Of a stretch of DNA of 64,000 nt, positions 11,784 to 14,838 are shown piece after piece. The notes under the pieces were generated by a model. The model was not told where the DNA came from. It did no database searches and worked only from the letters and a program-made list of their open reading frames with translations. Made by a program: the position numbers and the translations under genes. Each line of letters opens with the position of its first letter. The first letter of the stretch is position 1. Source of the DNA: Escherichia coli (GTDB lineage: Bacteria; Pseudomonadota; Gammaproteobacteria; Enterobacterales; Enterobacteriaceae); NCBI RefSeq assembly GCF_003334785.1, contig NZ_QOWV01000001.1; one strand, 5' to 3'.

Positions 11784-13496
11784 TTAAGGTGTGGGTTGTG
11801 CCTCTTTGGTTGAGGGTTGCGTCGTTGCTGACTTAACGGTCGGACGCGTCGCCGGAACATTGTCACACGGTTGCTCTTTCGGGCAGATCAAATCCAGCAT
11901 TTTCAGCGTCACGCCATTGGTCCAGCCAAAGCCATCCTGTAATGGATATTCGCCACCGCCGCCCCCCGTTCCGGTGGTGCTGACATCATATTTTTCCACC
12001 AGCTTTTTCTCCCGGTCATAGGTGTGCTGAACATTGGTCAGGAAGTGCCAGCTAATGTCCATCGCCACCTCTTTTTGCCCGTAGTTTTGTAATCCTTCTG
12101 TCGCGACCCACTGTAACGGTGCCCAGCCATTTGGCGCATCCCATTGTTGCCCACTTTTCACCGACGTGGTGTTCAGGCCGCCGGGTTGCAGCAGATGTGT
12201 TTTCGTCGCCGTCGCCATTTTGTTGGCGCGATCTTTCGCTGCCGCATTGACGTACAGCGGGAACAGGGCGGCCGCGGTTAACTGATTGCGCACTTTATGA
12301 CTTTTCAGGTCGTAATCGGCATACCAGCCTTGTTGATCGTTCCACAGGTATTTTTCGATCCCTTTTTGACGGGCATTTGCCAGCGTTTCGTACTGGTTTG
12401 CCATCGCGTTATCTCCGGCAGCTTTGCTGGCGCGGGCGAGGATTTTTTCCATTTTAAACATCAGGCTGTTCAGATCGACCGGTACGATGCTGGTGGTGCG
12501 TAAGGTATTTAACTGCTGCGGGTTGTCCATCCAGCGCGAGCTGAAATCCCAGCCAGACGCAGCGGCAGAGCGCAGGTCGCGGTAAATTTCAGTGGCAGGT
12601 CGATTCGGATTGCTTTTGGCGGTGGCAATATCTTCCACCCATGACTCTGGTCGTGGCGTATCGCGATCGTCCCAGTAGCGGTTGAGAAGGGTACCATCCT
12701 GAAGTTTGACAACGCGTTTTTCCTGTTGTCCGGCTTGCAGGTTTTCAACACCGTCCATCCAGTAAGCATATTCTTTTTGCATTTGCGGCAGGTATTGCTT
12801 CAACGCGGCATCGCCTTCATGCTGCGCCAGTAACTCTACCATCAGGGCAAAGAAGGGCGGTTGCGAGCGGCTTAAATAGTAACTGCGGTTGCCGTTGGGA
12901 ATATGACCGTAAGTGTCTATTTCATGAGCAAAATTGGCCACCATATTCGCGACTTTATCCCAGTGACCGCTTTCGGCAAGTCCTAACATGGTGAAGTAAC
13001 TGTCCCAGTAATATACCTCGCGAAAGCGTCCGCCCGGCACGACATAAGGTTCCGGCAGCGGTAACAGAGAATCCCATTTTTCGGTGTTTTCGGTAGAACG
13101 CGTTAATACCGGCCAAAGTCCGTCAATATGTTCGCGCAGTGACTGCCCCTCTGGCGGAACATATTTCTCGCCTTCTTTCGGCAGGGTGAAATTGACGTTA
13201 ACGAAATGGCGCAGATCAAATCCGCTCTGGTTTTGCTGCATCCGATAATCAGCAAGGATCATCAGCGGATCGCTGTTCGGCACGGCATCGGCAAAGGTTT
13301 TTTGGTCCGGAAAAAGTTTGGCGTTTTGCACATCATTAAACAGCGGCCCTAATAAAATATCAGGCGGCTGTGGTGTTACCGGTGTTTCTTCTGCCTGCAC
13401 CGATAGCGCAGCGAAACACAAAAAGATACAGGCTGGAATTAACGCCATTTTTTGCGGGCGAGAAGGTGCGGGGGATAATGATATGGTCACCCCCAC
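11784..13496 (-). CDS. treA: Periplasmic trehalase, with the 5' end rearranged by an IS insertion (first 7 codons from the ORF-track GTG start lie inside the IS)
   Basis: 570-aa [38 protein letters not shown]...; the remembered K-12 N-terminus is [11 protein letters not shown]. The displaced ATG AAA TC is found as revcomp gatttcat at 14831..14838. An in-frame ATG at 13448 precedes an intact signal peptide. Confidence 0.8.
13482..13494. repeat. Left 13-bp inverted repeat of the IS (tatggtcaccccc)
   Basis: Exact reverse complement of 14818..14830; the match does not extend by even 1 bp on either side. Confidence 0.75.
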
Positions 13497-13520
13497 CTTA
13501 ACAGCAGTACGCTGTTAAGG
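13496..13520 (+). other. Perfect 10-bp-stem hairpin in the IS left end, just upstream of the recombinase RBS
   Basis: ccttaacagc-agtac-gctgttaagg; the RBS ggagag follows at 13535..13540. Confidence 0.6.
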
Positions 13521-13546
13521 TAAATCCCTTTAACGGAGAGACCATC

Positions 13547-14551
13547 ATGCAGAACATCACACTTATTGGTATCGATCTCGGAAAGCACTCCTTCCACATT
13601 CATTGTCAAGACAAGTCTGGTAAGGCTCTTCTGCGTAAAAAATTTACCCGTACTAAACTGATGCAGTTTCTGGCGACATGTCCGCCCTCAGTTGTTGTAA
13701 TGGAAGCCTGTGCGGGTGCACACTTTATGGCTCGCTGTATCTCTGATTTTGGGCATGAAACTAAGCTGATTTCTCCACAGTTCGTTCGCCCGTTTGTCAA
13801 AAGTAATAAGAATGATTTTGTTGATGCAGAAGCCATATGCGAAGCGGCTTCACGACCATCAATGCGTTTTGTCCAGCCAAGAACTGAGACCCAGCAGGCC
13901 ATGAGGGCGTTACACCGGGTCAGAGAATCGCTCATCAGAGATAAGGTGAAAACAACCAACCAGATCCACGGTTTCTTGCTGGAATTTGGAATCAGCCTGC
14001 CGATAGGTGATGCTGTAATAAAACGGTTGTCTCTCGTGTTGGCTGAACACGAAATCCCCGAATATCTGAGCCGCCTTTTGGTGAGGTTGCATACCCACTA
14101 CTTTTACCTTGTTGAGCAAATAGCAGAGCTGGAATCAGAATTAAGTCAGTCAATCAACGCTGATGATACCGCTCAGCGCATTATGACAATTCCTGGTGTT
14201 GGTCCGATTACTGCCAGCTTACTATCGTCGCAACTTGGTGACGGGAAACAGTTCTCATGCAGCAGGGATTTTGCAGCTTCCACAGGACTTGTTCCCCGGC
14301 AGTATAGCACTGGAGGAAAATCGACTCTGTTGGGTATCAGTAAGCGAGGTGATAAAAATTTACGCCGGTTACTGGTTCAGTGTGCCCGCTCATTCATAAT
14401 GCGACTTGAACGCAAGCATGGAAAACTTGCTGAGTGGGTTCGGGAGCAACTCAACAAGAAGCATTCGAATGTGGTTACCTGCGCTCTGGCAAATAAACTG
14501 GCTCGAATTGCCTGGGCAATCACTACTCAGAAAAAAGAATATCAGGCCTGA
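13547..14551 (+). CDS. IS110-family DEDD recombinase/transposase (RuvC-like N-terminal domain plus C-terminal Tnp domain)
   Basis: 334 aa; N-terminal IGIDLGK, then VVMEACAGAH and DFVDAEA acidic motifs; C-terminal GVGPITAS...FAASTGLVPRQYSTGGKSTLLGISKRGDKNLRRLL, typical of the IS110 transposase domain. Confidence 0.85.
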   Translation: MQNITLIGIDLGKHSFHIHCQDKSGKALLRKKFTRTKLMQFLATCPPSVVVMEACAGAHFMARCISDFGHETKLISPQFVRPFVKSNKNDFVDAEAICEAASRPSMRFVQPRTETQQAMRALHRVRESLIRDKVKTTNQIHGFLLEFGISLPIGDAVIKRLSLVLAEHEIPEYLSRLLVRLHTHYFYLVEQIAELESELSQSINADDTAQRIMTIPGVGPITASLLSSQLGDGKQFSCSRDFAASTGLVPRQYSTGGKSTLLGISKRGDKNLRRLLVQCARSFIMRLERKHGKLAEWVREQLNKKHSNVVTCALANKLARIAWAITTQKKEYQA

Positions 14552-14830
14552 TATAGATGCTGATATAACTCAATTAGTTTATTTTAAACAATAAGATACA
14601 AGTTACCTTTCTGGTTTTGCGAAGACTGATTATTGATGACATGAACGGCAAATCGACCTGATTAAAAACCTAACAGATGAAATGGCTCACTGAAGCCGAG
14701 GGGATTTTTAGGATTATCAGGTGCGGAACTCATCGGGGCGCGGGCATCCTTGCCCACAGAGACGCCGGATAGATTTAAGCAAGCCAACCATTAATCAAAA
14801 ATCAGTGTTGCAAAAACGGGGGTGACCATA
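14552..14830 (+). ncRNA. Candidate guide (bridge/seek-like) RNA region in the IS right end
   Basis: 279-bp non-coding right end; the left end is only about 70 bp. Contains two 8-mers identical to the insertion target: aggtgcgg (14720..14727) and ggggattt (14700..14707). Small hairpin gggca-tcct-tgccc at 14742..14755. Transcript ends not defined. Confidence 0.35.
14818..14830. repeat. Right 13-bp inverted repeat of the IS (gggggtgaccata)
   Basis: Reverse complement of 13482..13494; lies exactly at the right junction. Confidence 0.75.
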
Positions 14831-14838
14831 GATTTCAT
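14831..14838 (-). other. treA: Displaced native treA start (ATG AAA TC), now separated from the gene body by the IS
   Basis: Plus-strand gatttcat is the revcomp of atgaaatc; together with the left flank it restores ATG AAA TCC CCC GCA CCT (MKSPAP). Confidence 0.6.

What the first reader, a model, noticed from the sequence alone, without database searches (positions are those of the whole stretch)
13474..14833. IS110/IS1111-family element (DEDD recombinase) inserted inside codon 3 of treA
A ~1.35 kb block interrupts the otherwise housekeeping treA-dhaM junction. It encodes a 334-aa protein with the IS110-type DEDD N-terminus and the Tnp-domain motif ...FAASTGLVPRQYSTGGKS...ISKRGDKNLRRLL. The flanks ...gcggggga|t and gat|ttcat rejoin to the native treA start (ATG AAA TCC CCC GCA = MKSPA), so the insertion falls in codon 3 with the same GA(T) on both sides. 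A short identical flank rather than a long target duplication fits the core-dinucleotide mechanism of this recombinase family. These elements are RNA-guided, so this copy and its target define a guide/target pair worth characterising.
Basis: partly seen in the sequence, partly recalled or inferred. Interest (0 to 1): 0.8.

Follow-up and report, generated by a model that had tools for sequence, protein, structure and literature searches.

The report
Known insertion sequence ISSfl8 disrupting treA
A 1,357-bp copy of the already catalogued, RNA-guided insertion sequence ISSfl8 has landed at the very start of the E. coli trehalase gene treA, at a rare secondary site that matches the element's two short RNA guides; it is a clean textbook case, not a new kind of element.

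Summary
Window 13477-14833 (1,357 bp) is a 100% identical copy of ISSfl8, an IS110-family / IS1111-group element listed in ISfinder-based tables and named by NCBI's annotation pipeline. It splits treA at the codon 2/3 boundary. K-12 and about 5,300 other complete E. coli genomes have the uninterrupted site GGTGCGGGGGAT|TTCATC. Only 2 of 5,426 carry this insertion, and the window is identical to one of them (JKHS016).

The 334-aa ORF hits both diagnostic Pfam domains and NCBIfam 'IS110 family RNA-guided transposase'. The element has 12-13 bp subterminal inverted repeats, a 70-bp left end and a 282-bp right non-coding end.

In that right end, two short blocks flank a conserved hairpin. GATGAAAT (14676-83) is complementary to the top strand AT|TTCATC. 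GGGGATTT (14700-07) is identical to GGGGAT|TT. In 20+ relatives the scaffold is conserved while these blocks change with each element's own flanks.

ISSfl8's usual home is a conserved site in DUF4942 genes; treA and arnC are rare sites sharing the same ~12 nt.

The 'GAT on both sides' is not a target duplication. The right-hand GAT is conserved IS sequence, and relatives share only one T with their targets.

Verdict: correct reading, already known, low interest.

The parts
13477..14833 (+). ISSfl8, complete copy, 1,357 bp. The frame is ambiguous by up to 3 nt; 13474-14830 is equivalent.
   Evidence: 100% identity to copies annotated 'IS110-like element ISSfl8 family transposase'. The K-12 empty site fixes the junctions.
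13474..13476 (.). GAT of the treA target, identical to the IS's own terminal GAT at 14831-14833. This is the source of the junction ambiguity, not a target-site duplication.
   Evidence: K-12 has one GAT. Relatives keep ...ATAGAT at the right end, but their left flanks end in CT or TT.
13483..13494 (+). Left subterminal inverted repeat ATGGTCACCCCC (13 bp if T13482 is counted), preceded by the terminal extension AATGAT (13477-13482).
   Evidence: Exact reverse complement of 14818-14829/30.
13547..14551 (+). tnp, a 334-aa DEDD recombinase. Predicted catalytic residues are D10, E53, D90 and D93. T255 sits in the motif GLVPRQYSTG at the position of the catalytic Ser of ISCro4 and IS621.
   Evidence: Pfam PF01548 and PF02371; NF033542; PDB matches 9t56 ISCro4 at 8.9e-15 and 8wt6 IS621 at 3.4e-14, with the ISCro4 alignment shown; residue numbers.
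14552..14833 (+). 282-bp 3' non-coding region, the predicted source of the seekRNA / bridge RNA.
   Evidence: LE is 70 bp and RE 282 bp. MFE is -78.5 kcal/mol, z = -3.6 against shuffles. Scaffold conserved in 20 relatives. The supplement of Durrant et al. lists ISSfl8 as 'RE, IS1111'.
14672..14683 (+). 5' arm of the target-binding loop. The guide GATGAAAT (14676-14683) is complementary to the top strand AT|TTCATC of treA.
14684..14697 (+). Conserved hairpin GGCTCACTGAAGCC separating the two guides.
   Evidence: Invariant stem in 20/20 sequences. The Burkholderia relative has a different hairpin sequence that can still pair, GGCTTTCCAAGCC.
14698..14709 (+). 3' arm of the target-binding loop. 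The guide GGGGATTT (14700-14707) is identical to the top strand GGGGAT|TT and so pairs with the bottom strand.
14656..14722 (+). Whole target-binding module with its closing stems ACCTG/CAGGT (14656-60 / 14718-22) and AACCT/AGGAT (14667-71 / 14710-14).
   Evidence: RNAalifold consensus and pair counts; the pair at columns 50/117 switches GC to AU in 3 sequences.
14723..14780 (+). Second (donor-type) module. The arms CTCATCGG (14729-36) and GGATAGATTT (14767-76) flank the hairpin GGCGC-GGGCATCCTTGCCC-...-GCGCC. ATAGAT equals the last 6 nt of the IS right end.
   Evidence: The assignment as a donor-binding loop is inferred.
14610..14821 (+). Predicted long closing stem (14610-14637 with 14794-14821) enclosing both modules.
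   Evidence: 23 pairs, 98.5% of cells paired, only one-sided changes. Prediction only.
14808..14813 (+). -35 hexamer TTGCAA. After circularisation it lies 17 nt upstream of the -10 GAT|AAT (14831-33 joined to 13477-79).
   Evidence: The junction scan passes the same sigma-70 criteria as the tool. No promoter-like site is found in the integrated state across 13300-15150.
11784..13476 (-). treA body, cut off from its start codon and promoter. The first 5 nt of the ORF (ATGAA) are at 14834-14838.

Best explanation
This is an intact copy of the known insertion sequence ISSfl8 (IS110 family, IS1111 group) that integrated site-specifically at the start of treA. The likely mechanism has four steps.

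1. The element excises as a circle in which its ends abut. This creates a promoter (TTGCAA, 17 nt, GAT|AAT) that transcribes tnp and the downstream non-coding region.
2. The non-coding region yields a structured RNA that binds the DEDD recombinase.
3. An internal loop of that RNA carries two guides. GATGAAAT pairs with the top strand to the right of the site. GGGGATTT pairs with the bottom strand to the left of the site. Together they select ~12 nt, GGGGAT|TTCATC.
4. A second loop, whose arms match the IS termini, holds the circle junction, and the recombinase exchanges strands without duplicating the target.

treA was hit because its first codons happen to contain the full 12-nt guide match. 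The usual home of ISSfl8 is the same motif inside DUF4942 genes. The insertion separates treA from its promoter, ribosome-binding site and first two codons, so trehalase expression is probably lost or strongly reduced.

Shown here: identity, junctions, domains, architecture, guide/target matches and their covariation. Inferred from experiments on relatives (ISEc11, ISKpn4, ISPa11, IS621): RNA production, RNA-protein complex, circle formation, strand-exchange chemistry. Also inferred: the treA phenotype.
For: Identity and insertion:
- 100% identity over 1,360 nt to ISSfl8 copies.
- K-12 rejoin with a 3-nt overlap.
- Only 2 of 5,426 genomes have the treA junction.
- The window shows 0 mismatches over 6,191 nt against JKHS016.

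Protein:
- PF01548 and PF02371, and NF033542 at 351 bits.
- Homology to the solved bridge recombinases ISCro4 and IS621, with T255 aligned to the ISCro4 catalytic Ser.

Architecture:
- 12-13 bp sTIRs, short LE and long RE.
- No promoter when integrated, but TTGCAA-17-GATAAT at the circle junction.

Guides:
- Two 8-nt matches sit in top-then-bottom order around a hairpin, as reported for IS1111 seekRNAs (PMC11187229).
- Three site classes, treA, arnC and DUF4942 paralogues, share G(G)GGGAT|TTC(A/T)TC.
- In 20 aligned relatives the scaffold has 87% mean column identity, while the two guide blocks are hypervariable.
- Over 26 insertion events in 7 guide families, the longest exact guide/flank runs average 7.7 and 7.9 nt for cognate pairs against 4.7 and 4.6 for non-cognate pairs. 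No non-cognate pair reaches the cognate median.
- Two of the three further relatives fetched (Burkholderia, Escherichia sp.) were read by eye and fit the same register.

Structure: 98.7% of cells paired against 31-50% when partners are slid, with compensatory changes in helices 3 and 7.
Against: - No RNA, circle or transposition was observed here.
- Most base pairs of the scaffold never vary, so structural covariation is thin (3 of 59 pairs have double changes).
- Donor-end recognition could not be tested, because the IS termini and the matching arms are invariant across the whole clade, including a Burkholderia member.
- ISSfl8's own left end (AATGAT) mismatches the presumed 5' donor arm at one position.
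- One relative (L010) fits its flanks poorly, with runs of 6 and 4 nt.
Confidence: 0.9

Rival explanations
1. The 1.36-kb block is ancestral at treA-dhaM and was deleted in most strains.
For: None found. The block does sit in otherwise conserved housekeeping DNA.
Against: 5,301 of 5,426 genomes match the treA flank, but only 2 span the junction. The same block is found at 100% identity at unrelated loci, DUF4942 and arnC, with the same ends. K-12 restores an intact treA start codon context.
Confidence: 0.01
2. Target choice is made by the protein, or by the inverted repeats, and not by an RNA. On this view the short matches in the non-coding region are coincidental.
For: The guide matches are short (8 nt each), many targets are T-rich and of low complexity, and no RNA was observed here. 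Rfam has no hit.
Against: Shuffling the treA target gives a mean of 0.29 shared 8-mers against 4 observed, P = 0.005. The two blocks change in step with the flanks in 7 guide families, while the surrounding scaffold and the IS termini stay fixed. Siddiquee et al. showed for four IS1111 members that the NCR RNA is essential and reprogrammable (PMC11187229).
Confidence: 0.04
3. The copy is an inactive relic: correctly classified but no longer mobile.
For: ISSfl8 is the only clade member with AATGAT instead of AATGAG at the left end, which mismatches the presumed donor arm. Most copies sit at one site and could be inherited vertically.
Against: The ORF is intact and identical to all other copies. 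The ends and guides are intact. There are at least three different loci plus different DUF4942 paralogues, which means repeated recent insertions at 100% identity. The JKHS016 chromosome carries only the treA copy, so that copy arrived there by movement or transfer.
Confidence: 0.05

Closest known systems
ISSfl8 (ISfinder entry; IS110 family, IS1111 group; first described in Shigella flexneri)
   Same: Nucleotide-identical to copies that PGAP labels 'IS110-like element ISSfl8 family transposase' (WP_001179707.1). The protein stretch printed for ISSfl8 in the Durrant et al. supplement agrees with this ORF apart from trimmed alignment columns, and that entry is flagged 'RE, IS1111'.
   Different: Only the location differs. 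treA is a rare site (2 of 5,426 genomes); the usual site is a DUF4942 gene.
IS5075 / IS4321 (IS1111 family; target the 38-bp inverted repeats of Tn21-type transposons)
   Same: About 70% aa and 68-69% nt identity. They have the same termini (AATGAG......CCATAGAT), sTIRs, NCR scaffold and guide register.
   Different: Their guide blocks read AAAACGGAAA and TATTTTC and match TATTT|TCCGTTTT in the Tn21 IR. They are 1,327 bp long rather than 1,357 bp.
ISEc11, ISKpn4, ISPa11, ISPst6 (IS1111 members with experimentally shown seekRNA; Siddiquee et al. 2024, PMC11187229)
   Same: They have a downstream NCR, a top-strand match 5' of a bottom-strand match, a circle-junction promoter, no target duplication, and natural retargeting by guide replacement.
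   Different: They are more distant in sequence and have different targets. None of the experiments was done on ISSfl8.
IS621 and ISCro4 bridge-RNA recombinases (IS110 group; structures 8wt6, 9t56)
   Same: They share a homologous DEDD plus Tnp-domain recombinase, a two-loop RNA with guides for both strands, and terminal guide bases that match the partner DNA ('handshake' logic, PMC11208158).
   Different: In IS621 the RNA is encoded in the left end, the STIRs are 2-3 bp, and a CT core is present in both donor and target. Here the RNA is in the right end, the sTIRs are 12-13 bp, the clade shares only one T between donor junction and target, and Thr replaces the nucleophilic Ser.

Membership tests
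IS110 family (DEDD recombinase IS) | N-terminal RuvC-like DEDD domain (Pfam PF01548) | tested here: met
   PF01548 at 1.1e-19 over residues 7-146. D10, E53, D90 and D93 are the proposed DEDD residues from conserved motif positions; the N-terminal ISCro4 alignment on its own is weak (i-Evalue 0.2).
IS110 family (DEDD recombinase IS) | C-terminal Transposase_20 domain (PF02371) with the G(L)xPxxxx[S/T]G motif | tested here: met
   PF02371 at 1.6e-22 over residues 209-288. GLVPRQYSTG lies at 247-256, with T255 aligned to the ISCro4 Ser. The TG variant is described for IS1111 members.
IS110 family (DEDD recombinase IS) | NCBI curated family model | tested here: met
   NF033542 'IS110 family RNA-guided transposase', 351 bits against a cutoff of 140.
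IS1111 group | Subterminal inverted repeats of about 11-13 bp with short asymmetric terminal extensions | tested here: met
   ATGGTCACCCCC at 13483-94 and GGGGGTGACCAT at 14818-29 (13 bp with the flanking T/A). The extensions are 6-7 nt on the left and 3-4 nt on the right; the definition comes.
IS1111 group | Long non-coding region downstream of tnp, with a short left end | tested here: met
   LE is 70 bp (13477-13546) and RE is 282 bp (14552-14833).
IS1111 group | Site- and orientation-specific insertion without target duplication | tested here: met
   treA, arnC and DUF4942 sites share GGGGAT|TTC(A/T)TC in one orientation. Empty treA and DUF4942 sites each have a single GAT.
IS1111 group | Promoter assembled only at the circle junction | tested here: met
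   In silico only. TTGCAA-17-GAT|AAT appears at the joined ends, and no promoter-like site is found in the integrated state. Neither circle formation nor promoter activity was tested.
seekRNA / bridge-RNA guided IS | NCR carries a top-strand complement 5' of a bottom-strand complement, overlapping at the insertion point and covarying with the target | tested here: met
   GATGAAAT at 14676-83 and GGGGATTT at 14700-07. Covariation is seen in 7 guide families and 26 events.
seekRNA / bridge-RNA guided IS | Second loop that recognises the donor (IS ends) | tested here: inconclusive
   The arm GGATAGAT matches the right terminus in the same register as the target guide, and the arm CTCAT matches ATGAG of the left terminus in relatives. 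Both the arms and the termini are invariant in every relative found, so no covariation test is possible.
seekRNA / bridge-RNA guided IS | The RNA is made, binds the recombinase and is required for movement | not testable with these tools
   Shown only for ISEc11, ISKpn4, ISPa11, ISPst6, ISEc21 (PMC11187229) and IS621 (PMC11208160).
IS110 group proper (IS621-like) | Bridge RNA in a long left end, 2-3 bp STIRs, and a duplicated core dinucleotide | tested here: not met
   The left end is only 70 bp, the sTIRs are 12-13 bp, and relatives share only one T between donor junction and target. The element is therefore filed under IS1111, not the IS110 group.

The most novel reading that the evidence does not exclude
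The comparative set built here suggests rules for this IS1111 clade that I did not find in the parts of the two 2024 papers I read. These are a one-nucleotide shared core (T); a target-guide 3' end ('AT') that matches the donor's right terminus rather than the element's own target; and two bases after the donor-type arm ATAGAT (TT, TC or TG) that track the first two bases of each element's right target flank. This would be a handshake-like feature on the other arm from the one described for IS621. If real, ISSfl8 and its natural treA, arnC and DUF4942 sites would be a compact system for working out strand-exchange rules in IS1111 elements.
Probability: 0.3. Interest if true: 0.35.

Novelty: already known. 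Interest (0 to 1): 0.15.

Why it matters
For annotation, three points follow. The treA gene in this strain is interrupted at its start, although PGAP still calls a 554-aa 'intact' trehalase from Met12. The strain probably lacks periplasmic trehalase. The block itself should be labelled ISSfl8. For biology, it is a tidy natural example of how a ~12-nt RNA-specified address lets an IS1111 element land in a housekeeping gene that happens to contain the address. It adds no new kind of system, because the element, its family, its RNA-guided mechanism and the position of its RNA were all already described.

Tried and rejected
1. Rfam 15 scan of 13000-15300 at E<=1 gave no match, so no curated bridge or seekRNA family covers this RNA.
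2. I looked for a hybrid promoter at the integrated left junction, using the treA-derived -35 plus GATAAT. It does not meet the sigma-70 criteria; no site was found on either strand.
3. Two further 8-mers are shared between the NCR and the treA flanks: AGGTGCGG at 14719-26 and ATTGATGA at 14632-39. I considered them as extended guides and rejected that. Both lie in scaffold segments conserved in relatives that have unrelated targets, and the arnC and DUF4942 sites lack the matches.
4. ATTATC at 14713-18 was considered as a donor guide (complement of GAT|AAT) and rejected. In the consensus structure it overlaps a closing stem, and it reads TTCATC or TGCATC in relatives with the same junction.
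5. TGATATA occurs twice, with ATAGAT, right after the stop codon (14549-14567), and resembles the circle junction. It does not change with the left end in L010 and is absent from IS5075, so I treated it as shared descent or chance.
6. A covariation test of the donor arms failed because the termini are invariant, even in a 67%-identical Burkholderia element. The plasmid tblastn was swamped by IS5075 and IS4321.
7. The metagenome scan for more ISSfl8 sites gave 8 loci; the 7 with a readable flank are all in DUF4942 paralogues.
8. Partridge & Hall 2003 (PMC219399) is not held, so the end conventions were taken from PMC11187229.
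Full report
**1. What is in the sequence**

Between the 5' end of treA (minus strand) and dhaM there is a 1,357-bp block.
- When the K-12 MG1655 treA-dhaM interval is aligned to the window, it splits into two perfect or near-perfect blocks. These overlap by 3 nt in K-12 (GAT) and lie 1,357 bp apart in the window.
- K-12 reads GGTGCGGGGGATTTCATCAATC. The window reads GGTGCGGGGGAT[AATGATATGGTCACCCCC ... 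GGGGGTGACCATAGAT]TTCATCAATC.
- The block contains one long ORF, 13547-14551 (+), of 334 aa.
- The insert is flanked internally by a perfect 12-bp inverted repeat: ATGGTCACCCCC at 13483-94 and its complement at 14818-29. The repeat is 13 bp if the adjacent T and A are counted. It is set back 6-7 nt from the left end and 3-4 nt from the right end.
- The left non-coding end is 70 bp and the right one is 282 bp.

**2. Identity**

The ORF matches both family domains:
- Pfam DEDD_Tnp_IS110 (1.1e-19) and Transposase_20 (1.6e-22).
- NCBIfam NF033542 'IS110 family RNA-guided transposase', at 351 bits against a cutoff of 140.
- By sequence, the solved recombinases ISCro4 (9t56) and IS621 (8wt6).

From conserved motif positions I propose D10, E53, D90 and D93 as the DEDD residues; the N-terminal ISCro4 alignment by itself is weak (i-Evalue 0.2). 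T255, in GLVPRQYSTG, aligns with the Ser of ISCro4. This is the TG variant of the motif that Siddiquee et al. describe for IS1111 transposases.

The whole block, with a GAT on each side, is 100% identical to a sequence present in all 40 listed E. coli genomes (85 records at >=99% identity). There the CDS is annotated 'IS110-like element ISSfl8 family transposase'.

ISSfl8 also appears in two published supplements:
- the identity matrix of Siddiquee et al. (about 70% to IS5075 and IS4321);
- the Durrant et al. table, flagged 'RE, IS1111', meaning a bridge RNA was predicted in the right end.

The element is therefore already catalogued.

**3. It is an insertion, and a rare one**

A 191-nt probe across the left junction finds the treA half in 5,301 of 5,426 complete E. 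coli genomes. It finds the full junction in only two, JKHS016 and AST198. The window is identical to JKHS016 over the 6,191 nt compared. The JKHS016 chromosome record shows only this one ISSfl8 place.

Elsewhere the element sits almost always in a DUF4942-domain gene next to CbtA-type toxin modules. One copy is in arnC. Of eight metagenome contigs carrying the ISSfl8-specific guide region, the seven with a readable flank are in DUF4942 genes, including sequence-divergent paralogues, which implies repeated insertions. A reconstructed empty DUF4942 site with a single GAT exists at 100% identity in many genomes. The gene family is present in 3,661 of 5,426 genomes, at a median of two places per genome.

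**4. The address**

The three site classes are:

| Site | Sequence around the insertion point |
|---|---|
| treA | GCGGGGGAT\|TTCATC |
| arnC | GCGGGGGAT\|TTCTTC |
| DUF4942 | (A/G)GTGGGGAT\|TTCATC |

In the 3' non-coding region two 8-mers match this address. GATGAAAT (14676-83) is the reverse complement of AT|TTCATC. GGGGATTT (14700-07) is identical to GGGGAT|TT. They lie on either side of a small hairpin, GGCTCACTGAAGCC, with the top-strand complement first. This is the order reported for IS1111 seekRNAs.

Shuffling the treA site gives a mean of 0.29 shared 8-mers against 4 observed (P = 0.005). The two extra 8-mers lie in conserved scaffold and are not shared with the other sites, so I treat them as chance.

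**5. Comparative test**

I collected relatives from three sources:
- plasmids and E. coli genomes (88%, 80% and 96% nt relatives, IS5075, IS4321);
- 39 loci from species-representative genomes, found with a scaffold pattern;
- three more plasmid elements, including one from Burkholderia.

All share the termini AATGAG...CCATAGAT; ISSfl8 alone has AATGAT. An NCR scaffold of about 225 nt has 87% mean column identity. Within that scaffold the two blocks flanking the hairpin are hypervariable.

In a fixed register, the 3' block positions 3-8 equal the last six bases of the element's own left flank, and positions 9-10 equal the first two bases of its right flank. The 5' block is the complement of the first 6-8 bases of the right flank, followed by two more bases.

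Examples:

| Element | 5' block / 3' block | Own target |
|---|---|---|
| IS5075 | AAAACGGAAA / TATTTTC | TATTT\|TCCGTTTT |
| Yersinia element | CAGCATGAAA / ACACTTTT | ACACTT\|TTTCATGCT |
| Xenorhabdus elements | AACAAAA / GGGAGTTTTT | GGGAGTT\|TTTGTT |

Over 26 events in 7 guide families, the longest exact runs average 7.7 and 7.9 nt for cognate pairs and 4.7 and 4.6 nt for non-cognate pairs. No non-cognate pair reaches the cognate median sum of 17. This is strong evidence that these blocks specify the target.

**6. RNA fold**

The NCR folds more stably than shuffles (z = -3.6). The alignment consensus has four parts:
- a long closing stem (14610-37 with 14794-821);
- the target module (14656-14722);
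- a second module (14723-14780);
- small helices.

98.7% of cells are paired, against 31-50% when the 3' partners are slid by 1-3 columns. Only 3 of 59 pairs show double changes, in helices 3 and 7, so most pairs are uninformative.

**7. The second module and the 'core'**

The arms of the second module are CTCATCG(N) and GGATAGAT(NN). ATAGAT equals the last six bases of the IS, in the same register as the target guide. CTCAT complements ATGAG of the left terminus in relatives. Because arms and termini never vary in the set, this donor-binding assignment is inference only.

Three details are worth recording:
- The left flanks of relatives end in CT or TT, not GAT. The right-hand GAT in the window is therefore IS sequence, and only a single T is common to the circle junction and the targets across the clade. 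The 3-nt identity in ISSfl8 arises because its address happens to end in GAT.
- The last two bases of the 5' target guide are AT in most relatives. This matches the donor's ...GAT rather than their own flanks, which resembles the handshake guides of IS621.
- The two bases after ATAGAT are TT, TC or TG, and they follow the first two bases of each element's right flank. This rests on about two independent changes.

**8. Expression logic**

No sigma-70-like promoter is found on either strand of 13300-15150 in the integrated state. Joining the ends creates TTGCAA-17 nt-GAT|AAT, which passes the same criteria. The -35 hexamer is TTGCAA in 19 of 20 relatives. This fits the circle-junction promoter known for the family.

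**9. Consequence for treA**

On the minus strand, the native ATG now reads MKSMVTPVFATLIFD* into the IS. The treA body has lost its promoter, ribosome-binding site and first two codons. An in-frame GTG within the left inverted repeat would give [16 protein letters not shown].... PGAP calls a 554-aa protein from Met12 and does not flag a pseudogene. By eye neither start has an obvious Shine-Dalgarno sequence, and the Met12 form lacks the charged N-region of the signal peptide. Loss or strong reduction of periplasmic trehalase is the likely outcome; this is inferred, not tested.

**10. Verdict**

- The GAT is not a duplicated core.
- The exact codon position is ambiguous between codon 2 and codon 3.

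The element is an identical copy of a catalogued IS, and its family mechanism was published in 2024. The finding is therefore already known and of low interest. The modest added value is the explicit guide/target map for ISSfl8 and its clade.

Noticed in passing
window 11784-13496 (-): An in-frame GTG inside the IS left inverted repeat creates a 570-aa fusion ORF ([21 protein letters not shown]...) that re-enters treA. In JKHS016, PGAP instead annotates treA from Met12 (window 13448) as an intact 554-aa trehalase and does not mark it as disrupted.
   Followed up: partly
window 13477-13482, versus L005-L049: ISSfl8 is the only member of the clade whose left terminal extension is AATGAT rather than AATGAG. 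The change lengthens its subterminal inverted repeat to 13 bp and mismatches the conserved CTCAT arm of the second RNA module.
   Followed up: partly
window 14775-14776; alignment A1 columns 170-171: The two bases after the conserved ATAGAT arm are TT, TC or TG in different relatives. They match the first two bases of each element's right target flank, so the arm reads like the right junction formed after integration. Only about two independent changes support this.
   Followed up: partly
window 14549-14567: TGATATA occurs twice, 12 nt apart, directly after the tnp stop codon with ATAGAT between the copies. This resembles the circle junction ATAGAT-AA-TGATAT. It does not track the left-end sequence in the 96% relative.
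   Followed up: partly
window 14684-14697 (-): The only terminator-like hit in the region is the reverse complement of the target-loop hairpin followed by ATTTCATCTG. It would face transcripts coming from the treA promoter.
   Followed up: no
NZ_CP147059.1 (E. coli JKHS016), L002: The JKHS016 chromosome, which is identical to the window over 6.2 kb, shows only one ISSfl8 place, the treA copy. There is no copy in a DUF4942 gene, so this copy arrived by movement or horizontal transfer and is not a duplicate of a resident copy.
   Followed up: no
L014-L018, L023, L026, L030, L031, L035-L037, L048 (Xenorhabdus spp.): A multi-copy relative in several Xenorhabdus species sits repeatedly in near-identical sites, AGGCTACGGGAGTT|TT(G/A/T)TTTCGCC. 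This suggests that it targets a dispersed genomic repeat.
   Followed up: no
L025 (Citrobacter sp. 18056) and L040 (Chryseobacterium sp. 18061): Both contigs show the same guide blocks, right end and 14-nt right flank (CCGTTTCCCAAACG) in two assemblies from the same project but different phyla. This could be cross-contamination or very recent transfer.
   Followed up: no
window 36785-37920 and 54172-55084: There are three rdlD-type antitoxin RNAs (ldr/rdl repeats), and four RtT repeats interleaved with two tRNA genes on the minus strand. These are ordinary features of this E. coli chromosomal region.
   Followed up: no
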